A DNA stretch of 55,220 nt from an uncultured Pseudomonadales bacterium (GCA_964502225.1 CAZCUC010000006.1:1-55220); one strand, 5' to 3'. Shown: positions 15,092 to 40,196, numbered from the stretch's first letter. Notes: generated by a model from the sequence alone, not told the origin. Program-made: numbers and translations.

Positions 15092-18000
15092 CTACTTACC
15101 TAATATTCTAAGGTTAATAATTCTGTCGAGAGTTTTAAGATTAGAGCTATTGTGAGGAATGATAAATTGTCTAGTACGGCTATTCTTGTCAGCGTATACG
15201 TGAGTGACGGCTCTATTATCGGATGTGCCTATGCTTGCATTTGGACTAATTGGGTCGATATATACGATATGATTATCTGGAGTAACTATTATGTTGCCAA
15301 CCCAGATATCGTTCCAAGGGAGATTTTTGGTGTCCAGGATATTTGCAAAATTGATAATCTCTTGCATTAGGGAATCAGATAATCTGTCGTTGTTTTGCAG
15401 ATATTCTTCCAGAGTGATTCCGGGAATGTAATCTAGTACATATCCTACTAGGTTTTCGCTCTCTTTGAAATGAATTAAACTCTGAGCATTGGCAAAATAT
15501 TGCAATTGACTATTCTCTAGCTTGCCTTCGATATATTTCAAGTATTGGAACTCTTCTATTGTGAGATTGTATGCTTCTGGATTATTTTTTGCTATTTTGA
15601 CTACTACTTCTTTGCTAGTTAAGTTATTTGTAGCTAGATATACATCTCCATACGCACCTCCACCCAAGTGTTTTGTTATTGTAAACTGGTTGCTTTCGCT
15701 GTCTACTACAATAGCGGATTTTTCATTCACTTGATCTGCAGTAATAATAGGTATGTCGATGAAAGTCGGGATATTTGAGGGTTTAAATCCTGAGTTAAGC
15801 ATCAATTTGTTCTCTTTGATCATGTCGCTAATTGCTGATAGTGGTTTTTTCTCTAGGTAAGTCATTAATAGTTGTCGTCTATATTTTTTAATGGCATCTA
15901 GGTTTGCGATTAGGGATTCATCTCCAGTACTAACTATTAATTGTGCCTCGTTGTACGCCAGATCCTTGGCCAGCTTGTTGTCTTCGTTGTTGTAAGTCTG
16001 GAGATCTGTGTCGCCTGTGAGTAATTTCTCTATGGCAGTTTGGTAGTCAGTTTTTTTGGTAGTGAGCTCCTCTTGGGAAGTGATGACTCTGATTGTGATT
16101 AGACCGTTGCCAAACTCAGTTTGATTGGCATTCATCTTGGCGAGGACGTCTTTTTTATTTTCTTTGGTTAAATCAGCAATGAACTTGGCTAGTTGGAGAT
16201 ACTCTTGTTGGTTGAATAGTTGAGTGATATGGCGATGGGTTTCTGATCCAATAACTTCGATCCTAAATGATCCATCGGGGTTTAGTGTGAAAGTAGGGTT
16301 GTTGCCACTAATACGACCGACATTGAATGACCATTGTTGAGGATCGAGTTGGGTGGCAGCCAGGATGAGTGCGGTTTTGTCGTCAGGACCCCAGTCTGGG
16401 TTGTCCCGAATACTCTTTATGAGTGCTTGCTTGGTTTGATCAATCAAAATCTGGTATTGAGGATCATCTTTGGGGATTGTCTCTCCAATAGCCTTTAGGA
16501 TGCGCATGGCTTTGAGTGACTCAGGATAGCCATAGAGAAGCTCTGGAAGCTTAGTTTCGAAGGCATGGGTGTTGTCGGCAATGGTGACAGCAGAGAGGAT
16601 GAGATCTCTGATGTCTGAACTGGCTAGATTAATAGGAGCAATATCGTGTTTGAGGATAGCTTCATGAATAATGGCTACTTGCTCTTTGTTGAATAGGCGA
16701 GAAAGGGGATGGTTGAGGTTGTTTTCTAGTTGTTCACGGAAATATCTGGCAGAGAGGACGTTGTGGCCGTTGTCGATGCCGAAGCGACTGGTGTTGATCC
16801 CCTCACGAACAGTGGGGTTGGTATATCCTAGGTCATGTCGATCTTGGATAACCATCGCTGCAAGATAGTCGATGGCCTTAATGTCTTTGCCTTGAGCTTT
16901 GAGTTTGTCGAGAATGTCAAAAGTGACTTTGGTATTGTGTTCAAATAAGTGACGCAGGCCATGATCCCCCAGGAGATTCTCGGTATCGACATAGTCTTGG
17001 TATGCCAGAAGGTGGATTTCTTCGATGAGCATGGACTGAATCTCTTGCATGGAGATGGAACCTGGACCTGAGAGCTTGACGCTTCCTGCAGCGATAGCTT
17101 CTTCCATCTTGCCTAGATAGAGGTTGATGAAGTCGTGGAGGAGGGCATGTTTGACAGAATTGTTCCGCTTTTGATAATTGTCCATAAGCCTGTCAGCTTC
17201 TATAAGTGCATGTTGCTTGATGTCATTGATCTGCATATTTTGAGTAGAGACAATTTTCACAGGCTTGATATAGGATGTCATGGCAGCTTGATGGACTTTT
17301 TGGCTTGACGAAGCTGCGTTGTTGTAAATATCATAGAGGTCTTTGGCATCGGTACGAGAGGTGACATAAGCTCTTTCACTCGTGCTCATTTGCGAAGATT
17401 GGATGGGGGTAAGTGAGGGAGTAGAGAGACCACTTCGCAAGTTGGTTAATGTAGGATTGATGCTTTTGATCCAGATGATGAAATCTTCATAATTATCGCC
17501 AATAAATGAGAATATAGTGCTATATGGTTCTGGAAGTAGTTCTACCGTATCTGGTAGATCAGCAATAAATTTGGTTATTGGCTCGGCAAATTTTATTCCC
17601 AGATATAAGAACTTGTTGAGCTTGATTGGTGGTTTTTCGACCTTGACAGGAATGAGTGATTCTCGTGGAGTATTGTTCTGATTATTTTGTGCATAATACT
17701 CCTCAAATAACTGTCTTCTCTTGGCCTTGATGGTGGATATCTCTAGGAGGACTGAGCTGTCGTCTGGAACGGTAACGAGGAGGGCTTCTTGGTACGCCAG
17801 ATCCTTGGCCAGCTTGTTGTCTTCGTTGTTGTAAGTCTGGAGATCTGTGTCGCCTGTGAGTAATTTCTCTATGGCAGTTTGGTAGTCAGTTTTTTTGGTA
17901 GTGAGCTCCTCTTGGGAAGTGATGACTCTGATTGTGATTAGACCGTTGCCAAACTCAGTTTGATTGGCATTCATCTTGGCGAGGACGTCTTTTTTATTTT

Positions 18001-27000: not shown

Positions 27001-30000
27001 GATTTGATTTGGCGATGGTTTCTAATCTTGATAATTCTCTGGAGTTGGCTAATTTTTCGTGAGCGAGTGTTAATTTTTCGATTTCGGCTTTTTGACCGTT
27101 GCTGGCGAGTTCAGTGAGAGTTTTGTTGGCTTCATTTTTCGCTTGAGCGGGATCTTGGGCAATTCTGGTACTAGATTCTTCAGACAGAATAGATCTTTCT
27201 TGATTGGCTTTCTCTCTGCTGATACGAGCGAGATTCTCTTCGAAGGTTGTTTTTTCGGTAGAAGTTTTGAAGAGGGGATCTAGGATAAGCTCAACTCCGG
27301 TGGGGGCAGTTGCCTTTTTGCTAAAGAGGGCTTCACGTAGGCGAGTGAGGAGGGGAGGTGGTGGTGGAGGGGTGAGGGCGGCGATTTGCCGTGCTACTTC
27401 TGCGTGTTTGACTGTCGCTAACGCTAAATCTTCGCGAGCGGAAGCAAGAGACTCTTCCATTTGACGGCGAACAGAGCTATTAACTTTTTCGAGATTGTTT
27501 TCTAGTCCAGTAACTCGTTCTCTAGCCGTAGTAAGCTCGGCTTCGCGGAGTGCGAGTTCTTGTCGAGCAGTAGTGAGTGTAGGATTTTCTACAGGTTTGC
27601 TAAATACTTCTCGAAGGCGAGTGAGGACGCCAGAAGATTTTTCGTTAGCTGGTGGGGCCTGAGGTTTGACTGGGCTTTCGGCAATTTCTGGAGGTTTAAG
27701 TGCTGTGCCTGCCAATTCTTGAGCGCGAGCATATTCAATCTCTGCTTTGTTTAGATTTTCTCGCAGCTGTGGAGTGACCGCTTCCTTGTTGTTTTCGAGT
27801 GTAAGCCTGGCAGCATCAACTTTAACCTTGGCTTGTTCGAGTCTGATTTGCTCGGGTGATTTGATTTCGGTGAGGGTAGGGGTCGAGGCTGTTTTGGGTC
27901 CGGTAAGTTTGGCAACGAGCGGATCTTGGACAGCACCGGAGATACCCATGGCGCACATGGACATGGTGTCGATATTGGCAGGGCCCTCGAATACTTTGGA
28001 GCAGGCACTAATTCCAAAAGTAATGGCAGAAGCAGTGTGAATACCTTGAAGTGCTGAGCCTCCAGTTAGTGCAACTGTTCCAAGCTTGCCTTCGATCTGA
28101 GCAAGTTTTGCTACCAGCCCAAAGTTGGTACTGGCCAGCTTGCCAAAGGAAGCGGCGGCCATGAGGATGCCCGAGGTACAGTCGAGAGAAGTCGAGTTCT
28201 CTCCGCAAGCTTCGTAGGCCATTTTGCCAAAAGTCACAGCACCAAGGAATTCGGTTCCGATATTGCCTGCCACTATGGTTTTTTGAGCAAGAGAGAGTGT
28301 GGCCCCAGCTTCGGCTACGCCGACTAGGGAGTTGGCTAGTCCTAGGCCGGTACCTGCGACGGAGATGGTGGCAATCGCGATTGCAGTATGACAGGCCTCG
28401 CTCCCGGGAGCTTGGGTGCAAGCGTCGGTGGCGGTGCCAATCATCTGGGTGGAGGAAGCAATGCCAAATCCGGTGCCAAGGAATGCTCCTGCACTGGGAG
28501 CGAGAGGGAGGGCAACTGCAGTCGTGACGACAAAGGCGGCGTCGCCGCCCTGGATGATGCCTCCTGAGATTACCCCCCATTTATCGATAGGATTTTCTAA
28601 GCCCATGGCTGAACCAAATGTATCGGCAGATACAAGTCCAAAGGTAGCATTTGACATGCCAATCGACAGTATGGTGCGGGTCATGCCGTTTCCATTTGCT
28701 GACTCTAGCAATAGGTCATTGCCACGTTTGAAGCGGCCGGCTGTAAAGTTGTTCCAACCGAGGACAATATTGGTGCCAAAGTCTTGGCGGAGCTCTGTGA
28801 GGGCGGCTTCTTGGGCTACCCAGTCGGTGTTGGGGTCGGCCGCGAGTCGGTCGTAGTTGGCAGGGTCCATGTTTTGCAGGGTAAAGGCGATTCTCTCCTG
28901 TGACATGCTATTTTGGTAAATCTTGTTTTTCTGATTTTGGATATTGATCAAAGTGAGTTCTGGGTCGTTTGTGTAGGCGCTGAGGCTGGTCAAAGATTCG
29001 TCTACATTGTTGCAGTTGGCCCCACCTAGAGCGTTGCAGGTGGAGGCTAGGTAGAGCTCTTCTAGCTGGGGTACATAGGTGGCACCTGTTTGAGAGTTGT
29101 TGGTCAGTTTAGTGGCAGTTTTCTGTGCGTATTGTTGACACTGATCAATTGAGTTGGCCGGCGAACTACGACATGTTTTAAAGGCAAGGTCATACTCTGT
29201 CTGGTAGTTAACGGGAGCCGCCTGACTAAGTTTTTTCTTGGTTTGCTGGTTGGCGATGGCTTCGCAGTCTCCACGGCCCTGAGTATTTGTCATACAGGCC
29301 AGGTACTCTGTTTGATAAATGGCTTGGGTATCGATGGCGGTGCTCGTGATATTACCTGTTTGGCCCAGCTCGTACCTGCTAATGGCATAGTTGGCCTGTT
29401 TTTGCCGGTTGAGTTCTAATGCCTTTTCCGCACTAATGCCGATATCTTTGAGTAATCCTCCATCGAGTAAATATTTACATCGATCAGAACTGATACCTCG
29501 GCAATACTCCTGCGAAAGCTGTGCGCTAGTGGTGGTGAGATATTTTGCCACCATTTGGTTTTGCGCTAGTTGTTGTTTGGCTTGAGAGGCTAGATCTTTG
29601 TTGGTGAGTTTGTTTAAATAATCCTCGCGGACGAAGTTCATCCTACAGTCGCGGTCGTCACCACAGATGCTATTGGCGATATCGGAATTCGATTTGGAAG
29701 AATCGGCGAAGATTTTGACGAGTTCTAGATCTTTTTTGTAGTTGGCGATATTGGTATCTCGCGTGCTCAAGAGCTCGTGGAGGGTGGCGGAATCAGTGAC
29801 TAGTCCTCTCAGATAAGACTCGGCGGTCAAATCGCGGCATTCGCCAGGGTGAGCTGGGTCGCAACCGGCCAGGGCTTTGAGATCGGTAGTAGGACTCAAG
29901 AAAGCTTGAATTTTGGCCTGATATGCCTCCTGTGCTTGAGAGTTTTGTTGTTGATTGGCGATGATTTCTTCTTTAACTGCGGTATCAAAAACAGCAGAAT

Positions 30001-30814: not shown

Positions 30815-30820
30815 GATACC

Positions 30821-30850
30821 AATGTACACCCCTGGAAAATCGCTTGTCAA
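30821..30850 (-). promoter_or_regulatory. Promoter of the giant ORF: TTGACA-18-TACATT, with the ATG 6 nt after the -10 (leaderless)
   Basis: On the minus strand, ttgaca is at 30850-30845, tacatt at 30826-30821, and the ATG at 30814. Confidence 0.5.
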
Positions 30851-30958: not shown

Positions 30959-32107
30959 ATGAATTTTTGGGATGATTTGTATGCAACTGGGAAACCCGTG
31001 CTTGGCTTGTCCCCGATGGACGGGGTGACGGACGCCGCCATGCGGTATATGACGGCAAAGTATGGGAGACCAAGTAGTAATCCTAAATCTAAAATCTTAA
31101 ATCCTAAAATTGGAGTTGATCTCTTATTTACCGAGTTTGTCAGTGTGGATGCACTCAAACATGCCAAAGAGGAAAAATCGGTCGATCGGGTGATGCGGGC
31201 ATTTATTAAAGCCAGTGATGTAGGACCACTAGAAAATAAACCGTATGAGATAGCTCAGGTTTTTGGTCATACACCAGAGTTGTTTTACCAGGCCGCTGTG
31301 ATGATAGCTACACTTGGGTTTGATGGAATGGATATCAATATGGGTTGTCCAGCCCACAAAGTGGAAGAGCAGGGGAGTGGAGCAGGTCTAATCCGATTCC
31401 CAGTGGTAGCACAAGAGATAGTACGACAATCTAAGCAGGCCATGGTGGACTTTGCTGAGGGGAAGGTCACGATCTATGACCTAGATATTAGTCCCATGAC
31501 CAGAGATTGGGTCAAGTCGCACTCAGGGGGTAAAGTATCTAAGGGGACTTTGCCTGTTTCAGTTAAAACGCGAATCGGAGTCGACAAAATCGTGGTCGAG
31601 GAGTGGATGGAAACACTCATGGAAGTAAAGCCTGCCAATATCAGTTTGCACGGGCGAACCCTAAAACAGCTTTACCAGGGGAGTGCCGACTGGGAAGCAA
31701 TCGGGAGGGCGGCAAAAATAGTCCATAAGCACGGTGGGCACATCTTGGGGAATGGGGATGTGATATCACTCCAAGATGGGATGGATAAAGTGAAGCAGTA
31801 CGGAGTTGATGGGTTTTTGATCGGGCGAGCGGCAGAAGGGAACCCGGCAATATTTTTACAAGGTTCCGTACCTTGTAATGTTTGTGGCGAACAAGGTACG
31901 GAACCTTGTATGCACAAGCGACTATCATGGATGGTTGAGCATGCACAAATCTATGAAAGGGTTTTTGGTCGAGATAACTTTATGCCTATGCGTAAGCACC
32001 TAGCCTGGTATTGTAAAGGGTTTGAGGGGGCGGTGGAGATGCGGACTAAACTGATGCAGACGAACTCGGCGGATGAGGTACAAGAGATTGTTGGGAGATT
32101 TGAGTGA
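30959..32107 (+). CDS. dus: tRNA-dihydrouridine synthase
   Basis: LSPMDGVTDAAMRYM, TEFVS, DGMDINMGCP, SVKTRIG, ISLHGRT and GNGDV motifs. A TAAAAT box (30947-30952) lies 6 nt before the ATG. Confidence 0.88.
   Translation: MNFWDDLYATGKPVLGLSPMDGVTDAAMRYMTAKYGRPSSNPKSKILNPKIGVDLLFTEFVSVDALKHAKEEKSVDRVMRAFIKASDVGPLENKPYEIAQVFGHTPELFYQAAVMIATLGFDGMDINMGCPAHKVEEQGSGAGLIRFPVVAQEIVRQSKQAMVDFAEGKVTIYDLDISPMTRDWVKSHSGGKVSKGTLPVSVKTRIGVDKIVVEEWMETLMEVKPANISLHGRTLKQLYQGSADWEAIGRAAKIVHKHGGHILGNGDVISLQDGMDKVKQYGVDGFLIGRAAEGNPAIFLQGSVPCNVCGEQGTEPCMHKRLSWMVEHAQIYERVFGRDNFMPMRKHLAWYCKGFEGAVEMRTKLMQTNSADEVQEIVGRFE
31078..31115 (+). repeat. AT-rich mini-repeat-like insertion inside dus, in frame
   Basis: Sequence taatcctaaatctaaaatcttaaatcctaaaattggag, translated as SNPKSKILNPKIG. 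It sits between the conserved KYG and DLLFTEFV segments and ends with AAATTGGAG like the other copies. Confidence 0.55.
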
Positions 32108-32108
32108 G

Positions 32109-33767
32109 TTATTCGGTAGTAGCAAGCTGGTAATATTCTTCCTTGTCGATTACGCCTTGTTTGAGGAGGTTCATCATGGCGTAGTTTACACTGGTTGGCC
32201 TCGCAGACGAATAGTATTTAAAGAGAGCAATAAAATCTAGAGATTTAATTTCATGCAATTGTGTTAAATCAAAGGGAATATGTTTGAGCCCAGCGAATGT
32301 AATGATTTTATCGATCGTTGAGATAATGTGAATAAAAGAGTTGCTGACAAGACCAGATGTGATGTAAGTGGCGATAGTTTCGTTGGTGATCTGCATGATA
32401 CGTAAGTCACTAATAGATTCCCATAGTTTGTCTGTGTAATTTTCCCGGTTTAGGGCGAGTGGTGCACGCGCTCCATTCTTTATGATAGTGGTAGTTGAGA
32501 CAACAAATGGCGCCGCGCGGAGTTTGATATCTTGTCCTTCAAGTGGTTCTCGCCTATCTTCGAGTGTCGCAAAATTGGCGTTGAAGGTGATTGGATCGTT
32601 GAGGATCGGGGCAACTTGGTCATAGACAGTTTTGGGAGCAGTCATCACAAAGCTTCCATTGTGTTGGTAGATATTGACTGTGTCTTGTTTGATTTTTAAT
32701 TCATCTAGAAGACGTCTAACCATGCGAACTGTTGCAACCATGTGGTGATCACCTTTGGTATGGCCACCCGTCTTGTTTACGTGTTTCATTAGCACATCGG
32801 CAAAGCGGATGAGATGGATGTCATCGCTATTGGAGATAGCGAAATGAGCATCTAGATCGGCTTGGAGAAGGGCAATCTTGCGGACCTTGAGGTCTTTGGG
32901 GAAAATACCTTCGAGCTCTTTGTTCTGGAGTACCGCGTCCAAGTTTTGGGTGAGCGAGTCTTTGAGGTAATCAATCAGGGGGATAGACGACTCAGAGGGT
33001 CTGACTCCTTTGTTGTCTGCTGCATCTATGCAAGCACCTATGGCTTGCTTGGCGTGGGGGGTGGCTTTGTGATCTGGCACTAACTGTCCATCTGACTTCT
33101 TATAAATTTGGGGTGAGTAGACATGTACCTGGTCGAGGGTAGTATAACGAGAAGTGAAACCTAGTTGTTCGTTGGGATAATATTCCTTCAGTGCCGCTGT
33201 AGCCTTGGAGAAAAAGGGTTCCTTATAATAAGCCAATTTTTTCTCATGGAGGAGCTGATCAAATCTTTTCTGGAGTTCTTGCCTGTTATGGTATTCGGTT
33301 GGGTTCTTGGGGGCGATAAAGGCGACGTCTTCATCCCCTGAGTACTTGCCGAGGACTATTTCTAGATTGAGATCATCGGCCGTCGCCAAGTAGATCTCCA
33401 TGTTGCCCAGAATGATTGCGTCGGCAGTCTGCGGGTTGACCTTTTGATCAATCAGGGCGATCTTGACTCCATCAAAGCTGGCAACGAAGCCGCATGACTC
33501 GAGGTTGTTGAGGAACTGGGTGGGATCTGCTGGGATATTACGTAGACCGTGGAGCATGGATTCTACTCTGGGGAGATGATGGATCTCCTTCTTATTATCA
33601 GGGTTGGGAGTCTTGGCAAAAAAGAACTGGAGGAGATCATCTTGTGACAATGGTACGGGTGGTTCCTGCTTATTTCCCATGACTCTAGAAATATAGTTTT
33701 CAAGATTGGGGAATTTGGTGGGCGAGACATGCTCGTGGTTTTCGAGTCTATTTTTATCAGTGGCCAT
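32109..33767 (-). CDS. Hypothetical 552-aa protein
   Basis: Long clean ORF downstream of, and co-oriented with, the Xis-like HTH gene. No motif recognised. Confidence 0.6.
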   Translation of the reverse strand: MATDKNRLENHEHVSPTKFPNLENYISRVMGNKQEPPVPLSQDDLLQFFFAKTPNPDNKKEIHHLPRVESMLHGLRNIPADPTQFLNNLESCGFVASFDGVKIALIDQKVNPQTADAIILGNMEIYLATADDLNLEIVLGKYSGDEDVAFIAPKNPTEYHNRQELQKRFDQLLHEKKLAYYKEPFFSKATAALKEYYPNEQLGFTSRYTTLDQVHVYSPQIYKKSDGQLVPDHKATPHAKQAIGACIDAADNKGVRPSESSIPLIDYLKDSLTQNLDAVLQNKELEGIFPKDLKVRKIALLQADLDAHFAISNSDDIHLIRFADVLMKHVNKTGGHTKGDHHMVATVRMVRRLLDELKIKQDTVNIYQHNGSFVMTAPKTVYDQVAPILNDPITFNANFATLEDRREPLEGQDIKLRAAPFVVSTTTIIKNGARAPLALNRENYTDKLWESISDLRIMQITNETIATYITSGLVSNSFIHIISTIDKIITFAGLKHIPFDLTQLHEIKSLDFIALFKYYSSARPTSVNYAMMNLLKQGVIDKEEYYQLATTE

Positions 33768-33812
33768 ACAGAGTTTAGTATAGCCTGAGTCGAGGTAGGG
33801 GAGTAGGGTGAA

Positions 33813-34022
33813 TTAGCTTTGGTCTGGGTTGATGCCGAGGAGCCACTGGACTTGTTCTTTTTTGTAGCGACGATCACCGCGAGAGTTGATGCGGATCGCG
33901 GGGAGCTTGCCGCGTTTGCCCCAGCGTTTGAGGGTGAGAGGGGAGACACGTAAGAGATCGGCTACTTCGCGGACTGTGAGGAGGTCAGGGAGGTTTTTGA
34001 GATCAACTTGAGTTTGTGACAT
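33813..34022 (-). CDS. Excisionase/AlpA-type (MerR-superfamily) HTH DNA-binding protein
   Basis: LLTVREVADLLRVSPLTLKRWGKRGKLPAIRINSRGDRRYKKEQV. 69 aa. Confidence 0.7.
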   Translation of the reverse strand: MSQTQVDLKNLPDLLTVREVADLLRVSPLTLKRWGKRGKLPAIRINSRGDRRYKKEQVQWLLGINPDQS

Positions 34023-34626
34023 GGTCTTAGTTTAGTACGTGTCGTGGTGTGTGTCAATAGGATACTATTTGATGATGTATATGATGTGTATTGATCATAC
34101 ATGATATTCAAATGCTATTTGATAAATAGATTGATGTAGTTAGATTGTGCGACCCCATAACTTCGTATTGAGTCTATGCAGTATCAGCAGTAAATGCTGT
34201 TAGAACCCCGACTGCGAAACTGCAAAACTGGATTACTGCTCATACTAGAATTGGACACTACCTGTAGCGTGTAGTTAGTATGGGGAGATGTGGAAAAGTA
34301 TTTAGCTCTGGTTACCAAGAATCTCGGGAAGTTTGGGCTCTAGCTCATGTAGGTATTGATGCATCGCTGACAAATTACTTAAGAGATTTGGATCATAAGC
34401 AATTGAAGCAAGGTATCAGACAAAGTCATTTCCGCGATAGCTTTGCACGTATTTGTTATATTCTTGTCCAACAAAGTCAAAATCGTTGTTGAGCTGTGGG
34501 CGCGAGACTAATGGCTCGGTCATATTTAGACTAATCGGTTGATAAAAATGATTTGGTGAGGTTTAACTCTGGTAGCATCGCTATTATTCGACCTCCATGT
34601 GATTGATGGTTGTGAGTCAACGATAA

Positions 34627-34800
34627 TTATGCTGGATTTGACTGCCCAGTAAGAGCTCCGGGATTGCCATTGGAGATTTGTTGTAGTACATCTGCTCCGC
34701 CTGCACCTGCGCCGATGCCTGTAGTCTGGCTTGCCACTTCAGCTTCTGTTGGTGTTGGTGTTTCGGTTGGTGTTTCGGTTGGTGTTGGTGTTTCTAACAT
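34627..34800 (-). CDS. 57-aa Thr/Pro/Glu-repeat peptide (MLETPTPTETPTETPTPTEAEV...GIGAGAGG...NPA)
   Basis: A strong SD, AAAGGAGAAAT, lies 5 nt upstream of ATG 34800. The first third is encoded by a 12-nt periodic repeat. The track ORF (34881) is trimmed to this start. Confidence 0.55.
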   Translation of the reverse strand: MLETPTPTETPTETPTPTEAEVASQTTGIGAGAGGADVLQQISNGNPGALTGQSNPA

Positions 34801-35024
34801 ATTTCTCCTTTTTCTATCTAATAATATTAGATTACCATAATCCTGACATGGCTTGCAACTGGGCAGGGGTAAGCGCGGCAATTATTCTTCCTTTAAATCA
34901 GTGGAGAGGTAGGAGATATCTACTTTTTATATAGTCATAGATCAATTATTGTACTCTGAGACTAAATGGATGCTTGATGGGGTATTTGACAGTGGGAGTC
35001 AAGTTGACAGTCTGCCGTTGTTGC

Positions 35025-36407
35025 CTAAACCTCGGATGGACTTGCACCTTTTATTAACTCCGTAAACGCGAGGTACAGATAGTCTAGCTGCTCGTGAGTG
35101 TCGTGTTTGTCAGCAAGAGCGCTGTGCCTTAAAAATGTAATTGCGTCTTGCGCAGATAAATACATGAAGTTGTTGCCTACTCTACCTGGTTTATAAGGTT
35201 TAATTACTGTGTTCTGTCTTACATGTGAAGTATGAGGATTGAGTCTAACTCGGTCTCTTAGGGTAGATAATTTGGCTGGCATGTTGCGGGCAAAGCCGTC
35301 TACCAAGGTGTCATTAGTGAGCGAATTTCGTCGACTTGACCTTGATGCAAATAAGTCAATATCGGTCTGGTGAAGGCTACGTCGCATTGCCACTGTCGTA
35401 TTTTGACGTAGTAATGGGGTGAGATTGGTTGCACGAACTATCTCGTGAGTTAGAGCGGGATCGTACGCCTCGGCGACAGTGAGATTGGCCGTAGTATAGC
35501 GAATCGCTTCTGGGTCATCCACTACTTGACTGCCAGTTGGTCGGTGTCTAGCCAGACTTTCCAAATCAATTTGATTCGTTGAGAGTCCTCGATCTGCCCA
35601 AGTGCGAGCTAAGCGAGCGACAAATACTGCCCACCACGAGACGCTTCCTGGACTGTGCTCCATGCGAGTAGTTGAATTGTAAAAACTATTGTCTCGCCAA
35701 AAACCGACAACGCCGTTGTGAGTCTCTAGCTTAGCTCTTTGATATTTTGCGCGGTGGGTGAGAATGCTTGACCAGTTATCCTCTTGATTGTTCGAGAAGA
35801 CGGAGATGGTAATACCCTGCGATAGCGGAGCTTCGAGATCATTGAGGCGAATCACTGACAATCTTCCTAAATCTTCGAGACTGAGGGCGAGAGTTTGTGA
35901 TTGATTGATCGCGCATAGATAGCCACGTAACAAGTGGTAATAAGAAGCTAATACTAGATCTGGGTTATGTTCTGTTTGATGGACAATATCAGCATTACGC
36001 CCTGAGCTAGCAAGTAAGGTCGGCAGATGCATTGTGGCTTCGAGCGAGAGGAGGATGGGTGGTAGTTGTTGGGTCAGGTGAGCATTGAGCAGGTGATGAC
36101 TGGCATCTGCATAAAGTCGCGCTCTTTGACTTTCGATATTTGGGTGAAGAGAGCGGAGTGGTCGATTAAGTGCGTCTGACAAATCAGCGACTAAACCAGG
36201 GTGAGAGCCAGGATTGGTTGTTACAATGCTGCCATCTAGGGTCGTTTGGCAAAAGAGGATGCTGTTAATTGGGGCAAGGCCATCACTTATTCTCCCAACA
36301 CCGCTATTTGGAGAGAGTAGCTTCTTTGCCAGGTTGGTGTAGCTGGCGCCGAGCGTTGCTGTGACTGCTTGATCTAGTGCAACAAAGTTAAGTTCTGTTC
36401 GCGACAT
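35025..36407 (-). CDS. Hypothetical 460-aa protein
   Basis: Its start overlaps the upstream regulator gene by 20 nt, which suggests translational coupling. No motif recognised. Confidence 0.6.
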   Translation of the reverse strand: MSRTELNFVALDQAVTATLGASYTNLAKKLLSPNSGVGRISDGLAPINSILFCQTTLDGSIVTTNPGSHPGLVADLSDALNRPLRSLHPNIESQRARLYADASHHLLNAHLTQQLPPILLSLEATMHLPTLLASSGRNADIVHQTEHNPDLVLASYYHLLRGYLCAINQSQTLALSLEDLGRLSVIRLNDLEAPLSQGITISVFSNNQEDNWSSILTHRAKYQRAKLETHNGVVGFWRDNSFYNSTTRMEHSPGSVSWWAVFVARLARTWADRGLSTNQIDLESLARHRPTGSQVVDDPEAIRYTTANLTVAEAYDPALTHEIVRATNLTPLLRQNTTVAMRRSLHQTDIDLFASRSSRRNSLTNDTLVDGFARNMPAKLSTLRDRVRLNPHTSHVRQNTVIKPYKPGRVGNNFMYLSAQDAITFLRHSALADKHDTHEQLDYLYLAFTELIKGASPSEV

Positions 36408-37479
36408 AGCCGGTTCCTCGGACTGGAGTAATATGGAGGGGGATTTTGTGTTTATTTAATTTAGTGCGTAAGCGTGAGATGGATTGTGAGAGTGCCCAGT
36501 CAGAGTAGTTGAGATCACCTGAAGGATATAGAGTGTTGGCAACAGTCTCGCGACTAACGGGTTGGTGATTTTTGATAAAGAGGTCAATTAGACGCAGTTC
36601 TCCAGGTGTAAAGAAGGAGCTTTGGTCAATGTTGTTGAAGATAATTTTTTGAGGCGTGGTTTGAATAGACTCGTTATATTGGTACTTAATAGAGTCGACA
36701 AGGTACTGGCCGATTGGTTTGCCAGTTGAATCAATAATGCCTGAGTCATACATTTCTTTGATAATCTGAGCATCGATGGGGAGTTGATTCCAGTGATCTT
36801 TGTATGCCTTGGGTAGCGACTCAAAGGTTGCTCTGACTCGGTATTTGAGCGAGGGGAGCTCGATAATCTGAGCCAAGCTGTGGCCAGGGAACTCTGATTG
36901 CAGGCGAATGTACTCGTTGATCAGCCAGGCAATATTGCCGCAATAGCAGATACAGTCCTCGATTTGTGAGTCGGTAAGCTGCATGTCCCAGAGCTTGATC
37001 ACGCCTTGTGTATATATGCGCAGGTCGAGCAGATTAGTGGGGAGCTTATAGATTGTTGGTTTTACATAGAGTACTGAGGCTCGATCGAAAGTAGTATAGA
37101 GCTCGTGGGGAGCACACTCGTGCACCAGGATCATGCGGTAGGGGGAGTTGGTGTGAAAATGTTCAAGAGTTGGCTCGAGGCGCGAGCTATCAGGCATTAA
37201 AAACTTTTCTCGGGCTAGGATGATAATATGCGACTTTACTGACTTGAGGCGTTTCTGAAGATCGTAGGTAGTTGAGATATTTTCGGCGTCTAGATCGATA
37301 ATTTGCACTTTAGCTTTGGCTTGAGTATTAAAGTAGTCCCGAAATTGAAAGAGGCGAGGGAGTAATCCTGTATTTTTAAGAAAAAATAGATTAGTGGTTT
37401 GATGGGTGATTAAGTGTCTGCTCCAGGTCTTAAATTGGGATTCGACGGCGGAGAGTGGCATTTGGCTGTAGTTGTTCAT
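36388..37479 (-). CDS. Regulator with a C-terminal OmpR/PhoB-type winged helix and no receiver domain
   Basis: C-terminus FFTPGELRLIDLFIKNHQPVSRETVANTLYP...WALSQSISRLRTKLNKHKIPLHITPVRGTGYV matches the trans_reg_C pattern. Start set at ATG 37479 (MNNYSQ). Confidence 0.65.
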   Translation of the reverse strand: MNNYSQMPLSAVESQFKTWSRHLITHQTTNLFFLKNTGLLPRLFQFRDYFNTQAKAKVQIIDLDAENISTTYDLQKRLKSVKSHIIILAREKFLMPDSSRLEPTLEHFHTNSPYRMILVHECAPHELYTTFDRASVLYVKPTIYKLPTNLLDLRIYTQGVIKLWDMQLTDSQIEDCICYCGNIAWLINEYIRLQSEFPGHSLAQIIELPSLKYRVRATFESLPKAYKDHWNQLPIDAQIIKEMYDSGIIDSTGKPIGQYLVDSIKYQYNESIQTTPQKIIFNNIDQSSFFTPGELRLIDLFIKNHQPVSRETVANTLYPSGDLNYSDWALSQSISRLRTKLNKHKIPLHITPVRGTGYVANRT

Positions 37480-37584
37480 AGATAGGTATTCGTCAAGTTG
37501 ACATATTAGTGTCAATTATGTAATCAAGCTATTTTAGCAGAGTGTGTCAAGATTATGGGGTTATTTAGTACACAAGGAGTGTGT

Positions 37585-38367
37585 ATGATCCAAGAACTAG
37601 TTGGGAGAGTGGAACCAATTAACCACTTTGTTGATATTTTGGATAGAATTGAACGCCAGGGACCGGTAAGCTCTAATCTAATAGAGTATTATGGCTCACC
37701 AGGTATTGGCAAATCGACGTTGCTGGTAGAGTTGGCACGTAAGTCTGAGAAGAAAGGCGCAAGAGTGGCCATGATTAACTTTGAAAATGAAGATACTGGT
37801 GAGTTGGAGCGTGATCCAACCTTATTGATAGAAAAACTGGCAAACCAACTAGGAATCAATCGTGGTAACTTTGCAAAGGCCCTGGCCGTGTACCGTCAAT
37901 CATCTTTGCCGAGTGAGGGAGTGGTGGCGGCGTATGCCAACATGAATCAAGAAACTAGACTCTATCGACGTCCAGATTGGCTAAATAAGTTGCGAGAGAT
38001 GGATGTTGAGTTTATCAAAGCGGTGAATGAAAGTAAGTCACCTATGGTTCTGCTTTTTGATGAAGCGGATGAAACTAGTGTTGAGGTTTTAGATTTTGCG
38101 GAGGAGTGGATTATGAACCCGATTGCACAGGTCAAAACTGCCATTATTGGCTTTGCCGCTACCAGACCTTGGAGGTGGAAGAGGCCCGAGATCAGACGAA
38201 GACTGACAAGTACTCAGATCGGGACATTGAAAAAAGAAGAGGTGGGAGAATGGCTAAGACAAGAGTGGCCTAACTGGAAAGGTTCTTTAACATCAGCGAT
38301 TATCGGCGATATTTATCAAACAACTGGAGGACATCCTGGAGCAATCCAGGCTGTAATTGAATCATGA
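37585..38367 (+). CDS. P-loop NTPase (AAA/STAND-like)
   Basis: AAGGAG SD at 37574-37579. Walker A is YGSPGIGKSTLLVELARK and Walker B is VLLFDEADE. Start set at ATG 37585. Confidence 0.7.
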   Translation: MIQELVGRVEPINHFVDILDRIERQGPVSSNLIEYYGSPGIGKSTLLVELARKSEKKGARVAMINFENEDTGELERDPTLLIEKLANQLGINRGNFAKALAVYRQSSLPSEGVVAAYANMNQETRLYRRPDWLNKLREMDVEFIKAVNESKSPMVLLFDEADETSVEVLDFAEEWIMNPIAQVKTAIIGFAATRPWRWKRPEIRRRLTSTQIGTLKKEEVGEWLRQEWPNWKGSLTSAIIGDIYQTTGGHPGAIQAVIES

Positions 38368-38981
38368 CTAACAGACCAGAATTTGCTTCTACACAATTTG
38401 AATATCTCCTAAAAGGTGCTCTGAGTAAAGAAGGAACAGAGATACGTGAGGCAGCTGTGCCTCTAAGTTGTGTAAGATTATTTGACACAAATATGATGAG
38501 CAAAGTTTTGAAAGCCACCAAGCCAGGTATATATAAATCGTGGAATATAGCTGATTTTGGTGATCTACTCTACAAATTTAGAAATTCTGGACTGCTAGTT
38601 CGGGAGAAAGGATATGCAGTAGATTCTGCTGTACGTCATTTAGTTTCAGAGCACTTGAGATATAACGAACCCAAAATGTTCACAAAGGCTAATTTAGCCG
38701 CACTAGAAGTTTATCGAGAATGGCTAAGTAGGCCAGTTGATAGTAGAAGTCTATATGTAGTAGAGGAGTTGTTTCATGTCGCTAACCTAGATCCACAGGC
38801 AGATTTGACGGGACTACTGAAGGGGAGACTTGAAGAGTACCCAAGATGGTATCGTGATACGATTGAACACCAGATTCAAGTAGACAATTTAGGTCAGTTA
38901 CTGCGAGATGATATAGAACTAGAAAGTCTCACTAGTTCACTACCTGAGATGATGGAGTTGGTGAAAAAGTATAAACCATAA
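38364..38981 (+). CDS. Helical protein coupled to the P-loop NTPase (possible split STAND C-terminal module)
   Basis: ATGA start/stop overlap with the upstream gene. 205 aa, predicted helical. No motif recognised. Confidence 0.55.
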   Translation: MTNRPEFASTQFEYLLKGALSKEGTEIREAAVPLSCVRLFDTNMMSKVLKATKPGIYKSWNIADFGDLLYKFRNSGLLVREKGYAVDSAVRHLVSEHLRYNEPKMFTKANLAALEVYREWLSRPVDSRSLYVVEELFHVANLDPQADLTGLLKGRLEEYPRWYRDTIEHQIQVDNLGQLLRDDIELESLTSSLPEMMELVKKYKP

Positions 38982-39046
38982 ATTGCTGTTATTCCGATCT
39001 TCCTGTCAAATATACTGAATTTTAGGTATATTGTGAGCGCGTCTAC

Positions 39047-39074
39047 AAAAACCCCGCCTGGTGGCGGGGTTTTT
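39047..39074. terminator. Bidirectional intrinsic terminator
   Basis: Sequence aaaaa-ccccgcc-tggt-ggcgggg-ttttt, located between convergent genes (38364-38981 on the plus strand and rplL on the minus strand). Confidence 0.85.
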
Positions 39075-39115
39075 GAGTTTACGGACGGATGATAATCCGC
39101 CCCTACGGGTAACAA

Positions 39116-39142
39116 TTATTTCAATTCAACGGTTGCGCCGGC
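39116..39142 (-). pseudogene. Orphan duplicate of the last 8 codons plus stop of rplL
   Basis: The reverse complement gcc ggc gca acc gtt gaa ttg aaa taa encodes AGATVELK*. The peptide is identical to the true rplL end (39178-39204). All 4 nucleotide differences are synonymous. Confidence 0.6.
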
Positions 39143-39177: not shown

Positions 39178-39558
39178 TTATTTTAATTCAACTGTAGCTC
39201 CGGCTTCCTCGAGTTTCTTTTTCGCGGCTTCGGCGTCTTCTTTTTTGGCACCTTCAAGCACGGTCTTGGGAGCGGCTTCGACTAGATCCTTGGCTTCTTT
39301 GAGGCCGAGGGTCTGGTTGAGTTCGCGGACTGCTTTGATGACACCAATTTTGTTGGCACCACCAGCTTTGAGGACGACATCAAAGGCATCCTGAGCTTCG
39401 GCGGCAGGAGCGGCGGCGGCACCAGCGGCGGCAGGAGCGGCCATCATGGGAGCGGCGGCACTAACACCGAACTTTTCTTCGAGGGCTTTGACGAGTTCGG
39501 CCACTTCGAGGACGGATAATTTCTCGATTTGCTCTACTAGAGCGACTAGATCAGACAT
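39178..39558 (-). CDS. rplL: 50S ribosomal protein L7/L12
   Basis: [24 protein letters not shown], an Ala-rich hinge, then [24 protein letters not shown]...ATVELK. Confidence 0.96.
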
Positions 39559-39597
39559 ATTGTCTCCTTTTATATTTATTTATACAAATAATACTAA

Positions 39598-40134
39598 TTA
39601 AGCGGTTACAGCTTTCTTTTTGTTTACTGCAGATAGGGCGTAAACGAGGGATCTCATCGGAGCTACCAAGATACCGACCATGTTTCTAGCAGGGTTACTG
39701 AGTGTACCCAGGAGTTTGGCGATCAATTCTGCCTTGCTCGGGAGGGCGGCTAGTTGCATAACTTTTTCCATCGATAACACATCTTTGCCCAGTATACCGG
39801 CCTTTACTTTGGGTAGATTCTTGTCGTTGGCCTTGCCAAACTCGACTAAAGCTTTGAGAGGGGCGACCGCGTCGTTTTCGGCGAGCAGGGTGAGGTTGGG
39901 ACCGGTCAGCTCTTTGTCTAGACTACTCACGTCGTAACCTTTGCTGGTCATGGCGATTTTGAGGAGGCTGTTTTTGGCGACGGTGATCGTGCCACCGGCG
40001 GCTCTGACTTTGTCGCGCAGATCGACCTGCTCTTTGACGGTGAGGCCGGCATAGTCAGCGATAAAGATGGCTTCGACTTTGTCTAGTTTTTCGACTAGCT
40101 CGGCGACGGCCGCGATGTTTTGTTTGTTTGGCAT
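39598..40134 (-). CDS. rplJ: 50S ribosomal protein L10
   Basis: KQNIAAVAELVEKLDKVEAIFIADYAGLTVKEQVDLRDKVRAAGGTITVAKNSLLKIA. Start set at ATG 40134. Confidence 0.93.
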   Translation of the reverse strand: MPNKQNIAAVAELVEKLDKVEAIFIADYAGLTVKEQVDLRDKVRAAGGTITVAKNSLLKIAMTSKGYDVSSLDKELTGPNLTLLAENDAVAPLKALVEFGKANDKNLPKVKAGILGKDVLSMEKVMQLAALPSKAELIAKLLGTLSNPARNMVGILVAPMRSLVYALSAVNKKKAVTA

Positions 40135-40196
40135 ACTTCGATTCCTTTCAGTCACTCAGTACTTTCAGTACTATTTATAATATTTGCTTTTAGGCC

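What the first reader, a model, noticed from the sequence alone, without database searches (positions are those of the whole stretch)
34627..38981. Locus with a receiver-less wHTH regulator, an orphan, an (ETPT)n peptide and a divergent split P-loop/helical pair
On the minus strand there are three genes. The first is a 363-aa protein whose C-terminus is a clear OmpR/PhoB winged helix with no receiver domain. The second is a 460-aa orphan that overlaps it by 20 nt. About 220 nt further on is a 57-aa ORF with a strong SD, MLETPTPTETPTETPTPTEAEVASQTTGIGAGAGGADVLQQISNGNPGALTGQSNPA.

Divergently on the plus strand there is a P-loop NTPase (GSPGIGKST and LLFDEADE) with an ATGA overlap onto a 205-aa helical protein.

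A wHTH, a P-loop NTPase and a helical repeat module are the parts of AfsR/SARP- or STAND-like regulators, here spread over separate genes. The peptide has a repetitive acidic Thr/Pro leader-like half and a Gly/Ala/Asn-rich core-like half. It could be a signalling or modified peptide, with the 460-aa orphan as its partner. Its 12-nt repeat could also expand or contract in frame.
Basis: partly seen in the sequence, partly recalled or inferred. Interest (0 to 1): 0.65.

Follow-up and report, generated by a model that had tools for sequence, protein, structure and literature searches.

The report
Conserved regulator pair flanked by swappable genes
In an uncultured wastewater bacterium of the Candidate Phyla Radiation, a conserved two-gene regulator module sits between two mirror-image DNA control sites that each face a slot whose genes differ between strains; the P-loop pair and the (ETPT)n mini-gene are simply what this strain carries in those slots.

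Summary
All five ORFs exist as described. The interpretation mostly fails.

The "receiver-less" wHTH protein (363 aa) has an N-terminal AAA+-fold domain of its own with a degenerate Walker A, followed by an OmpR/PhoB winged helix. It is always followed, with a 17-23 nt overlap, by the 460-aa orphan family. This pair lies downstream of rplJ-rplL in about 20 metagenomic loci, and ahead of a BldC-like HTH gene and dus wherever the contig reaches that far.

A 37-38 nt composite site, GTCAASTTGAC-N7/8-GTCARN-N6-RTCAAGC, occurs exactly twice in the window (0 expected). The two copies are inverted and flank the pair. Each faces outward and is followed at 15-21 nt by a -10-like hexamer.

The divergent slot holds the P-loop + 205-aa pair here. 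Strains with ≥99% identical regulators carry unrelated genes there, starting right after the same start codon. The downstream slot holds non-homologous small acidic ORFs in different lineages. The (ETPT)n ORF is species-specific, with 53/57/61-aa alleles.

Best reading: an autoregulated transcription-factor pair driving two variable cargo slots. Cargo function, the 460-aa fold and transcription remain unknown.

The parts
36388..37479 (-). 363-aa regulator: N-terminal AAA+-fold domain with a degenerate Walker A (FFLKNTGLLPR) and conserved motifs VHECAPHEL and YCGNxPWLINEYIRL; helical linker; C-terminal OmpR/PhoB winged helix.
   Evidence: Pfam Trans_reg_C 34.1 bits. PDB profile hits to SaeR, ToxR and PhoB DNA-binding domains. 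AF2 model pLDDT 89.6. Foldseek top hits are RuvB, ORC, DnaA, RFC, Hda and Cdc6/Orc1, E 7e-8 to 4e-5. Family of 17 sequences.
35025..36407 (-). 460-aa partner protein of unknown fold, translationally coupled by a 20-nt overlap with the regulator gene.
   Evidence: No Pfam, NCBIfam, PADLOC, PHROG or PDB sequence match. AF2 pLDDT 39.7. Five close and about 15 distant relatives in 1.8 billion representatives. It follows the wHTH gene in every locus that covers the position. Invariant residues in the superfamily alignment: G59 S60, N138 x D140, R268, A312.
37492..37529 (+). Composite operator O1 (GTCAAGTTGAC-N8-GTCAAT-N6-ATCAAGC). It faces the divergent cargo slot and overlaps the start region of the regulator's own transcript.
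   Evidence: The pattern occurs exactly twice in the window with 0 expected. It is present at the same place in all related loci. It lies 21 nt from a (T/G)ATTAT hexamer in all 13 O1 copies examined.
34972..35008 (-). Composite operator O2 (GTCAACTTGAC-N7-GTCAAA-N6-ATCAAGC), starting 17 nt after the stop codon of the 460-aa gene and facing the downstream slot.
   Evidence: A -10-like hexamer follows at 15-20 nt in all loci; here it is TACAAT at 34948-34953.
37480..37584 (.). Divergent control region. It contains the extended -10 TGCTAAAAT (37531-37539, minus strand) for the regulator, GATTAT (37551-37556, plus strand) for the cargo, and SD AAGGAG plus the fixed ATG (37574-37587) for the cargo.
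   Evidence: Mean pairwise identity is 0.81 against 0.64 for the adjacent coding sequence. For example, L006 vs L018 is 0.92 against 0.56. Motif coordinates.
37585..38367 (+). Slot-1 cargo gene 1 in this strain: 260-aa AAA_16/STAND-like P-loop NTPase with intact Walker A and B.
   Evidence: Family of 8 sequences at 40-80% identity. It is found in the same slot in another species (L021) and in a decayed locus (L020). It is replaced in other strains.
38364..38981 (+). Slot-1 cargo gene 2: 205-aa helical protein joined by an ATGA overlap; possibly the missing C-terminal part of a split STAND-type NTPase.
   Evidence: No family or PDB hit. Fragments of a homologue follow the P-loop gene in L020.
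39046..39074 (-). rplL intrinsic terminator, which marks the outer boundary of slot 1.
   Evidence: Homology between strains and lineages resumes exactly here.
34627..34800 (-). 57-aa (ETPT)n ORF: current first intact ORF of slot 2; acidic (pI 4.05, no K or R); contains the 12-nt tandem array at 34754-34786.
   Evidence: Alleles of 53, 57 and 61 aa. No homologue outside this species. Transcription untested.
34860..34899 (-). Remnant (GRIIAALTPAQL) of an 85-aa gene that occupies slot 2 in other lineages.
   Evidence: tblastn 11/13 identical residues and blastn 78% over 41 nt to L006 6017-6057.
33813..34022 (-). 69-aa BldC/excisionase-type MerR HTH gene: the conserved far end of the island, next to dus.
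   Evidence: Pfam MerR_1 7e-11 and NCBIfam HTH_BldC. 92.5% identity to L016, where the regulator is only 45% identical. Present in the six loci whose contigs reach that end (family 5), and also in L020 and L021.

Best explanation
**What it is.** The core of the locus is a lineage-specific two-gene regulatory module of Microgenomates-type CPR bacteria. The module has two variable cargo slots.

**Proposed mechanism.**
- The 363-aa protein has a nucleotide-binding-deficient AAA+-like domain and an OmpR/PhoB winged helix.
- It binds two copies of a composite operator: a palindrome followed by two direct GTCAR/RTCAAGC boxes, the latter two 12 nt apart.
- The two copies flank its operon as an inverted pair.
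- O1 overlaps the start of the regulator's own transcript. Occupancy there should repress the regulator-460 operon.
- The last box of each operator sits where a -35 element would be for an outward-facing promoter. This is PhoB-like class II geometry. The protein therefore probably activates, or at least gates, transcription into the two flanking slots.
- The 460-aa protein is made in fixed proportion through the overlapping reading frames. It most likely binds the regulator as its sensor or modulator.

**The slots.**
- Slot 1 runs from the rplL terminator to a fixed SD + ATG. Slot 2 lies downstream of O2.
- Both hold accessory genes that are exchanged between strains by homologous recombination in the conserved flanks.
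- In this strain, slot 1 holds a split STAND-like P-loop NTPase (260 + 205 aa).
- Slot 2 holds a young, repeat-bearing, acidic 57-aa ORF lying beside the remains of older cargo.

**Shown:** gene and domain content, co-conservation, operator pair, promoter geometry, cargo replacement, repeat alleles.

**Inferred:** DNA binding by this protein to these sites, the sign of regulation, the regulator-460 interaction, and cargo function (most likely conflict, defence or host interaction).
For: **Domains.** Trans_reg_C scores above threshold. The family profile matches PhoB, SaeR and ToxR DNA-binding domains. A confident AF2 model (pLDDT 89.6) gives AAA+ clamp-loader/initiator-type hits.

**Pair conservation.** The regulator and the 460-aa homologue occur with a 17-23 nt overlap in every locus that covers both genes, down to 35% regulator identity and about 20% identity for the 460 family.

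**Operators.**
- The composite site occurs 2 times in 55 kb against 0 expected, in inverted orientation, at the two ends of the operon.
- The same arrangement is found in all loci that cover these positions.
- No further exact copy of the direct-repeat half occurs in the window.
- The spacing to a -10-like hexamer is constant: 21 nt at O1 in 13/13 loci and 15-20 nt at O2.
- The control region is more conserved than the coding sequence beside it (0.81 vs 0.64; up to 0.92 vs 0.56).
- In the distant locus L025 the palindrome differs at both sites while GTCAGC-N6-GTCAAGC is kept at the downstream site.

**Cargo variability.**
- L002 and run X5 carry a 143+142+116-aa set, and run X6 carries a third sequence. 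Each starts right after position 37587 in contigs about 99% identical up to that point.
- A second species shows the same two alternatives: L016 vs L021, regulators 99.4% identical.
- Slot-2 first ORFs are non-homologous but all acidic, pI 4.05-5.25.
Against: - There is no experimental or transcript evidence. The only metatranscriptomes from a matching study do not cover even rplL of this organism.
- Binding of this protein to these sites is inferred from position and repeat architecture only.
- The 460-aa protein has no assignable fold, so a sensor or modulator role is a guess.
- None of the 11 alternative cargo proteins scanned matches Pfam (10 scanned) or PADLOC (10 scanned); of the window's own cargo only the P-loop protein has a family (AAA_16). 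A defence or conflict role therefore rests only on the pattern of strain variability.
- The promoter hexamers are consensus-like matches in AT-rich DNA. The general promoter scan found no excess over shuffles.
- All related sequences are short metagenomic contigs. "Same species" is inferred from ≥99% identity of the regulator genes.
Confidence: 0.55

Rival explanations
1. The wHTH, P-loop NTPase and helical protein are one AfsR/SARP/STAND-type regulator split over three genes. The (ETPT)n peptide is a signalling or modified (RiPP-like) peptide whose partner is the 460-aa protein.
For: The P-loop protein is AAA_16/STAND-like, with weak NACHT, NB-ARC and nSTAND hits. It ends at a GxP-like motif before the helical ORF. 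It is transcribed divergently from the wHTH gene, from a shared control region. The peptide has a strong SD.
Against: - The P-loop + 205 pair is replaced by unrelated genes in strains with near-identical wHTH and 460-aa genes, and in most lineages.
- The wHTH protein has its own AAA+-like domain.
- There is no BTAD or repeat sensor domain.
- There is no profile similarity between the regulator and the P-loop or 205-aa proteins.
- The peptide has no homologue outside this species, whereas the 460-aa family is conserved alongside other small ORFs.
- No modifying enzyme, peptidase or transporter lies in the locus.
Confidence: 0.05
2. The inverted 37-38 nt repeats are recombination or transposition ends rather than operators. 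The wHTH/AAA+ protein (an IstB/TnsC/MuB-like helper) and the 460-aa protein (a novel recombinase) form a domesticated mobile element that captures or exchanges the flanking cassettes.
For: The inverted repeat pair flanks a two-gene module. One gene has an AAA+ fold, as in the helper ATPases of IS21, Tn7 and Mu (the comparison with those elements is from general knowledge). Variable DNA lies on both sides. The 460 superfamily has invariant polar residues (GS, NxD, R) compatible with an enzyme.
Against: - Every locus recovered lies in the same context: next to rplL wherever the contig reaches it, and ahead of the BldC-like gene and dus wherever it reaches that far.
- No transposase or recombinase family is hit.
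- Walker A is degenerate, so ATP-dependent helper activity is unlikely.
- The slot-1 junction is 58 nt outside the repeat, at the start codon, and at the rplL terminator on the other side. This is what homologous recombination in conserved flanks would give.
- No inversion or excision joints appear in 8 DNA runs.
- There are no relatives on viral contigs.
Confidence: 0.08
3. The AAA+/winged-helix protein is an Orc1/Cdc6- or DnaA-like initiator. The repeated GTCAA boxes are iteron-like origin elements of an integrated replicon or a secondary origin.
For: Foldseek hits include DnaA, ORC and Cdc6/Orc1. The combination of a palindrome, direct repeats and AT-rich DNA next to an autoregulated gene resembles iteron replicons (general knowledge).
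Against: - GC skew stays strongly positive across the locus with no inflection.
- Walker A is degenerate throughout the family.
- The two sites face outward with fixed spacing to -10 hexamers, SD and start codons.
- The locus is chromosomal and syntenic in all lineages.
Confidence: 0.03
4. The (ETPT)n ORF is not a gene. It is a chance ORF over a slippage-prone 12-nt repeat in decaying slot-2 DNA, and repeat-number changes are in frame only because the unit is 12 nt long.
For: - It is species-specific with no homologues.
- It lies beside a pseudogene remnant.
- It is low-complexity, and any copy-number change of a 12-nt unit keeps the frame.
- Only two SNPs fall inside it, one synonymous and one Gly>Glu.
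- There is no transcript evidence.
Against: - The AAAGGAGAAAT-ATG ribosome-binding context is identical to one found elsewhere in the window.
- It is the first intact ORF downstream of O2 and its -10 hexamer.
- It is intact in all strains, while the DNA just downstream carries 184- and 220-nt deletions in some.
- It shares the small-and-acidic character of the slot-2 first ORFs in six other cargo types.
Confidence: 0.35

Closest known systems
OmpR/PhoB-family winged-helix transcription factors (PhoB at pho boxes)
   Same: The C-terminal Trans_reg_C domain is shared. Both use direct-repeat boxes at about one helical turn, with the promoter-proximal box occupying the -35 position upstream of a -10 hexamer. 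The pho-box comparison is from general knowledge.
   Different: There is no receiver domain and no phospho-acceptor Asp. In its place is a roughly 200-residue AAA+-fold domain plus a helical linker. The operator also contains an 11-nt palindrome.
AAA+ initiator/clamp-loader clade proteins with a C-terminal DNA-binding domain (Orc1/Cdc6, DnaA, RuvB; archaeal ATPase_2 such as PABY2304)
   Same: The domain order is the same: AAA+ core, helical lid, then a winged-helix or HTH domain.
   Different: Walker A and Walker B are not conserved. The winged helix is of the OmpR type. The context is a promoter pair, not an origin.
Conserved regulators that accompany diverse defence systems (BrxR/CapW wHTH-WYL family; PMC9122601, PMC9122589)
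   Same: A single conserved DNA-binding regulator, with an operator of inverted repeats at its own promoter, sits next to very different cargo gene sets.
   Different: The protein families are unrelated, with no WYL domain. Here the regulator is fixed at one chromosomal site with two slots, and has an obligatory 460-aa partner. The cargo has no match to known defence systems.
Replacement-type flexible genomic islands and core-genome defence hotspots
   Same: Non-homologous gene sets alternate between strains at one site bounded by conserved sequence, and the same alternatives are seen in two species.
   Different: The boundaries here are a terminator and a start codon with a shared promoter and SD. 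Every cargo is therefore plugged into the same expression signals.
SARP/AfsR and STAND regulators
   Same: wHTH and P-loop NTPase domains occur in one neighbourhood. The P-loop cargo is AAA_16/STAND-like.
   Different: In SARPs the wHTH is N-terminal and followed by BTAD. No BTAD or repeat sensor is present, and the P-loop genes are dispensable cargo.

Membership tests
OmpR/PhoB winged-helix DNA-binding domain (PF00486) | Profile match above the curated threshold | tested here: met
   34.1 bits against a cut-off of 26.2, residues 302-371 of the 375-aa form. 14 of the 17 family proteins returned by the search carry a precomputed PF00486 hit.
OmpR/PhoB winged-helix DNA-binding domain (PF00486) | Winged-helix fold with a C-terminal beta-hairpin wing (RGxGY) | tested here: met
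   The AF2 model has helices 292-343 and strands 349-353 and 357-361. The invariant motif R354 G355 x G357 Y358 is present. PDB hits to SaeR, ToxR and PhoB domains.
Two-component response regulator | N-terminal receiver (CheY-like) domain with a phospho-acceptor Asp | tested here: not met
   No Response_reg hit. The N-terminal domain has an AAA+ fold.
AAA+ ATPase | Alpha-beta-alpha core plus helical lid fold | tested here: met
   Foldseek probability 1.00 to RuvB, ORC, DnaA, RFC and Hda, E 7e-8 to 4e-5, using a model with pLDDT 89.6.
AAA+ ATPase | Walker A GxxxxGK[ST] and Walker B hhhhDE | tested here: not met
   The P-loop position reads LKNTGLLPR with no GK[ST]. The Walker B position varies (ARE, ARS, VRD, AYD and others) across 17 sequences.
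SARP/AfsR | N-terminal wHTH followed by a BTAD domain | tested here: not met
   The wHTH is C-terminal and there is no BTAD hit in any protein of the locus.
STAND NTPase (P-loop + 205-aa pair) | P-loop NTPase core with Walker A/B of the AAA_16, NACHT or NB-ARC type | tested here: met
   AAA_16 34.6 bits against 32.6. NACHT, NB-ARC and nSTAND hits fall below their cut-offs. GSPGIGKST and LLFDEADE are invariant in 8 homologues.
STAND NTPase (P-loop + 205-aa pair) | Winged-helix domain and a repeat sensor (TPR, WD40 or LRR) C-terminal to the NTPase | tested here: inconclusive
   The 205-aa protein has no Pfam, NCBIfam or PDB match.
RiPP or quorum-peptide locus | Precursor next to a modifying enzyme and/or a processing exporter | tested here: not met
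   No YcaO, lanthipeptide, radical-SAM, peptidase or ABC-transporter family occurs in the locus.
RiPP or quorum-peptide locus | Peptide family conserved together with its partner enzyme | tested here: not met
   Loci containing the 460-aa family carry non-homologous small ORFs instead of this peptide.
Integron | IntI tyrosine recombinase and attC-bounded cassettes | tested here: not met
   There is no integrase. The cassette ends are the rplL terminator and a start codon.
Insertion sequence or transposon | Terminal inverted repeats | tested here: met
   A 37-38 nt imperfect inverted pair flanks the two genes.
Insertion sequence or transposon | Recognisable transposase, and copies at different genomic sites | tested here: not met
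   No transposase family is hit. All loci are in the same rplL-linked context, with the BldC-like gene and dus on the far side where the contig reaches them.

The most novel reading that the evidence does not exclude
The module is a dedicated "expression dock" of CPR bacteria. A new signalling pair, a pseudo-AAA+/OmpR-wHTH protein plus the 460-aa sensor, switches on whichever accessory cassette a strain carries in two standardised slots. Alternative cassettes, including a minimal split STAND NTPase and fast-evolving small acidic proteins, would be maintained across species by balancing selection. They would determine phage resistance or compatibility with the host cell on which these episymbionts depend.
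Probability: 0.25. Interest if true: 0.75.

Novelty: new variant of a known kind. Interest (0 to 1): 0.55.

Why it matters
CPR bacteria make up a large share of bacterial diversity, yet almost nothing is known about their gene regulation or their strain-level accessory functions.

This locus offers a compact and testable case:
- a new transcription-factor architecture (an inactive AAA+ domain fused to an OmpR-type winged helix) with an obligatory partner of unknown fold;
- a clearly defined pair of operator sites;
- two slots in which unrelated genes are plugged into identical expression signals.

If the cargo proves to be defence or host-interaction genes, the module would show how reduced-genome symbionts organise and control their variable gene pool. 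It would also provide a sequence handle, the conserved control region, for finding such genes in metagenomes.

For the original finding the result is sobering. The peptide and the P-loop pair are interchangeable passengers, not parts of one machine.

Tried and rejected
**460-aa protein**
- Pfam, NCBIfam, PADLOC and PHROGs gave nothing.
- The AF2 model with 6 sequences was unusable at pLDDT 39.7, so no fold search was run on it.
- PDB profile searches with 6 and with 24 sequences gave nothing.
- hhalign against the 552-aa neighbour, the regulator family and the P-loop family showed no relation.

**Cargo proteins**
- Eleven alternative cargo proteins were scanned, ten against Pfam and ten against PADLOC. 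None matched.
- The 205-aa protein has no PDB match.
- The test for a split paralogue of the regulator (regulator family vs P-loop family and vs the 205-aa protein) found no significant similarity.

**RNA and transcription**
- Rfam at gathering threshold found only 3 tRNAs in the window. The relaxed scan found only sub-threshold sRNA-like hits over the terminator region at 38952-39122.
- The generic promoter/terminator scan showed no excess over shuffles.
- RNA-seq: the only metatranscriptomes linked to the DNA runs do not cover this organism, so transcription is untested.

**Wider searches**
- The metagenome scan with the control-region pattern gave only 2 more loci.
- Viral contigs hold no operator, no regulator relative and no P-loop relative.
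- Two short Nitrospirota matches to the 460-aa profile in the genome scan cover residues 128-182 only and were set aside as likely spurious.
- The search for remnants of the receiver-like and second wHTH genes in the window found only the 85-aa gene fragment.
- The literature search for CPR hypervariable islands found nothing specific to this locus.

Full report
**1. Observation**

- A 363-aa ORF lies at 36388..37479 (-).
- A 460-aa ORF lies at 35025..36407 (-) and overlaps it by 20 nt.
- A 57-aa ORF lies at 34627..34800 (-), 225 nt further on, behind AAAGGAGAAAT-ATG.
- Divergently, a P-loop protein lies at 37585..38367 (+) with GSPGIGKST and LLFDEADE. An ATGA overlap joins it to a 205-aa ORF at 38364..38981.

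Pfam places an OmpR/PhoB winged helix at the C-terminus of the first protein (34.1 bits, cut-off 26.2). It places AAA_16 on the P-loop protein (34.6 bits, cut-off 32.6). The 460-, 205- and 57-aa products match nothing in Pfam, NCBIfam, PADLOC or PHROGs. The 12-nt repeat is a perfect 2.8-copy array at 34754-34786.

**2. Organism and setting**

Related contigs are labelled Candidatus Woesebacteria and Moraniibacteriota, which are CPR lineages. The DNA is found in wastewater, activated-sludge, freshwater and sediment metagenomes. In the window the locus lies between rplJ-rplL (39178..40155) and a BldC-like HTH gene, a 552-aa orphan and dus (30959..34022).

**3. The wHTH protein is not domain-less**

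Its family has 17 members at 35-68% identity. AlphaFold2 on that alignment gives a confident model (pLDDT 89.6).

The domain layout is:
- residues about 9-145: an alpha/beta core;
- residues 150-196: a helical lid;
- a helical linker;
- the winged helix.

Foldseek against the PDB returns RuvB, ORC subunits, DnaA, RFC, Hda, Cdc6/Orc1 and the archaeal Walker-type ATPase PABY2304, at E 7e-8 to 4e-5 and probability 1.00. So the N-terminal domain has an AAA+ fold.

The nucleotide-binding motifs are missing, however. The Walker A position reads LKNTGLLPR and the Walker B position varies. The conserved motifs are instead VHECAPHEL and YCGNxPWLINEYIRL. By sequence, only the winged helix finds PDB relatives: SaeR, ToxR and PhoB.

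**4. The 460-aa protein is the regulator's constant partner**

Only five proteins at 50-55% identity exist among 5.8 billion clusters. An exhaustive profile search of 1.84 billion representatives finds 21 proteins at E ≤ 0.001, including the query family's own representative and a 148-aa fragment of it. The distant ones are 394-553 aa and have no Pfam domain.

In every contig that covers both genes, the homologue follows a wHTH-family gene with a 17-23 nt overlap. This holds even where the regulator is only about 35% identical. The overlap suggests translational coupling.

Its fold could not be predicted (pLDDT 39.7), and PDB profile searches are empty. A 24-sequence alignment leaves G59-S60, N138-x-D140, R268 and A312 invariant.

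**5. A pair of inverted composite operators**

Just after the stop codon of the 460-aa gene, and just upstream of the regulator's start codon, lies the same composite sequence: GTCAASTTGAC-N7/8-GTCARN-N6-RTCAAGC.
- It occurs exactly twice in the 55-kb window, with 0 expected in shuffles. The copies are at 37492-37529 (+) and 34972-35008 (-).
- It occurs at the same two positions in every related locus that covers them.
- The two copies are inverted relative to each other and each faces outward.
- No other exact copy of the direct-repeat half occurs in the window.

Downstream of O1, all 13 copies examined have (T/G)ATTAT after exactly 21 nt, followed by AGGAG(G) and an ATG. Downstream of O2, a -10-like hexamer (TATAAT, TACAAT, TAAAAT or TATATT) follows after 15-20 nt. 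The last box therefore sits where a -35 element would be. This is the geometry of PhoB-type activation (general knowledge).

The regulator's own extended -10, TGCTAAAAT at 37531-37539, fires through O1. Occupancy of O1 should therefore repress the regulator's own operon.

The 111-nt control region is more conserved than the adjacent coding DNA. Mean pairwise identity is 0.81 against 0.64, and for L006 vs L018 it is 0.92 against 0.56. In the distant locus L025 the palindrome differs at both sites. The GTCAGC-N6-GTCAAGC part is kept at its downstream site.

**6. Both flanks are variable slots**

*Slot 1.* This slot runs from the rplL terminator (39046-39074) to the fixed ATG (37585-37587).
- In the window and in L001 it holds the P-loop + 205-aa pair.
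- In L002, whose regulator and 460-aa genes are 99.6% identical, it holds three unrelated genes of 143, 142 and 116 aa. These begin right after the same start codon.
- Contigs from two further runs match up to position 37587 and then continue with two different sequences. One is the L002 type and one is a third type.
- Other lineages carry 188+193, 178/190, 157+113, 141, 147+114 or 145+165+135+138-aa sets.
- A second species shows the same two alternatives as the window species. L016 carries 147+139 aa and L021 carries a P-loop protein of 274 aa, with regulators 99.4% identical.
- The shared cargo proteins are 40-46% identical between the two species, about the same as the regulators at 45%.
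- This fits either old polymorphism maintained across species or repeated exchange.
- None of the 11 alternative cargo proteins scanned matches Pfam or PADLOC.

*Slot 2.* This slot lies downstream of O2.
- The first ORF is 57 aa (ETPT type) here.
- Elsewhere it is 61-65 aa in L006/L021, 71 aa in L012/L016, 89-90 aa in L007/L018, and 53 aa in L025.
- These ORFs are mutually non-homologous but all acidic, with pI 4.05-5.25.
- Other lineages continue with a receiver-like 113-120-aa gene and a second wHTH gene. The window lacks both.
- The window keeps only a 12-residue remnant of the 85-aa gene, at 34860-34899.

**7. The (ETPT)n ORF**

It exists only in this species. Because the unit is 12 nt long, this says nothing about whether the ORF is coding.

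Points in favour of a real gene:
- a ribosome-binding context identical to another site in the window;
- its position as the first intact ORF behind O2;
- its integrity in all strains, while DNA just downstream carries 184- and 220-nt deletions in some;
- the acidic character it shares with the other slot-2 ORFs.

Points against:
- no homologues;
- low complexity;
- it lies beside a pseudogene remnant;
- only two SNPs, one synonymous and one not;
- no transcript data, since the available metatranscriptomes do not cover this organism.

I put the chance that it is a real gene at about two in three. Nothing supports a RiPP or signalling role. There is no modifying enzyme, peptidase or transporter in the locus, and the 460-aa family is conserved without this peptide.

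**8. The P-loop + 205-aa pair**

The P-loop protein has intact Walker A and B motifs. It ends at TGGHPGA, a GxP-like motif of the kind that closes the helical domain of STAND NTPases (the comparison is from general knowledge). The 205-aa helical ORF follows.

A split minimal STAND-type NTPase is therefore a reasonable description of this cargo. It has eight relatives at 40-80% identity. It sits in the same slot in L021 and in a decaying locus, L020, where the regulator and the helical gene are fragmented. It has no significant profile similarity to the regulator and no relatives on viral contigs.

**9. Explanation and rivals**

The best-supported reading is a conserved regulator pair that represses itself and gates two outward promoters, each feeding a strain-variable cargo slot. 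Confidence is 0.55.
- Shown: gene content, co-conservation, operator pair, promoter geometry, cargo replacement.
- Inferred: DNA binding, the sign of regulation, the regulator-460 interaction, and cargo function.

Rivals:
- *Split SARP/STAND regulator plus peptide partner (0.05).* Contradicted by the lack of co-conservation.
- *IR-flanked recombination or transposition module (0.08).* Contradicted by the fixed genomic position, the absence of any transposase family, and junctions that lie at the terminator and start codon rather than at the repeats.
- *Initiator/iteron system (0.03).* Contradicted by the uninterrupted GC skew and the degenerate Walker A.

**10. Comparison and novelty**

The winged helix is a member of the OmpR/PhoB domain family. 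The protein is not a response regulator, not a SARP, and not a functional AAA+ ATPase by motif.

The logic resembles conserved regulators that accompany diverse defence systems, such as BrxR/CapW (PMC9122601, PMC9122589). It also resembles replacement-type flexible islands. The protein families, the obligatory 460-aa partner and the two standardised slots fixed next to rplL are new.

I rate it a new variant of a known kind, with interest 0.55.

Noticed in passing
window 15092-30850 (-): A single 5252-aa ORF. Its C-terminal half carries Ser/Thr protein kinase, PP2C phosphatase and MgtE_N-like hits, and its N-terminal 2617 aa have no Pfam match. A large ORF also follows dus in L006 and L020.
   Followed up: partly
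window 1-55220: GC skew on the + strand is strongly positive (about +0.1 to +0.34) over nearly the whole window regardless of gene orientation. It dips to about 0 only at 41-44 kb.
   Followed up: no
window 34046-34157 (-), and 34251-34304: Two non-coding blocks upstream of the BldC-like HTH gene are 76-81% identical to the equivalent positions in L006, L012, L016 and L018, although the genes between them differ. The first is probably the promoter or leader of the BldC-like gene.
   Followed up: partly
window 33813-34022 (-): The 69-aa BldC/excisionase-type MerR HTH protein is 92.5% identical between lineages whose wHTH regulators are only 45% identical. It also gives a weak hit to MADS mad1.
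   Followed up: partly
window 32109-33767 (-): This 552-aa orphan is absent from the near-identical strain L003. It is only 22% identical to a 515-aa protein at the same place in L016, which suggests a third variable position in the island.
   Followed up: partly
L009 553-1736; window 39009-39037: In L009 an HATPase_c-like 284-aa gene and a 110-aa gene are inserted between the rplL terminator and slot 1, behind a promoter-like ACCTAAATTTTAGGTATATTTGACA sequence. The window keeps a similar sequence as a remnant just inside slot 1.
   Followed up: no
L020 8256-9677 and 10595-11211: This is a decayed version of the locus. The wHTH gene is broken into 80- and 108-aa fragments, the 460-aa gene is missing, and the helical gene is split into 66 and 89 aa, while O1 and the P-loop gene are intact.
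   Followed up: partly
L006 6238-7258; L012 4885-6766; L016 4114-6217; L018 3962-4429: Other lineages carry a 113-120-aa protein with a receiver-like sequence pattern (ALIDGDIGG ... YIFKT) that has no Pfam hit. They also carry a second, shorter Trans_reg_C protein in slot 2. Both are missing from the window.
   Followed up: partly
L024 2714-3142: In a distant locus the 142-aa gene next to rplL shares an NRxNPEPI...C..CP motif with the 143-aa cargo family of L002, L016 and L019 (seen by eye). That cargo family may be old in this slot.
   Followed up: no
window 2630-3712 (-): A 360-aa protein with an N-terminal MerR/HTH_17 domain is a second excisionase-type HTH protein in the window.
   Followed up: no
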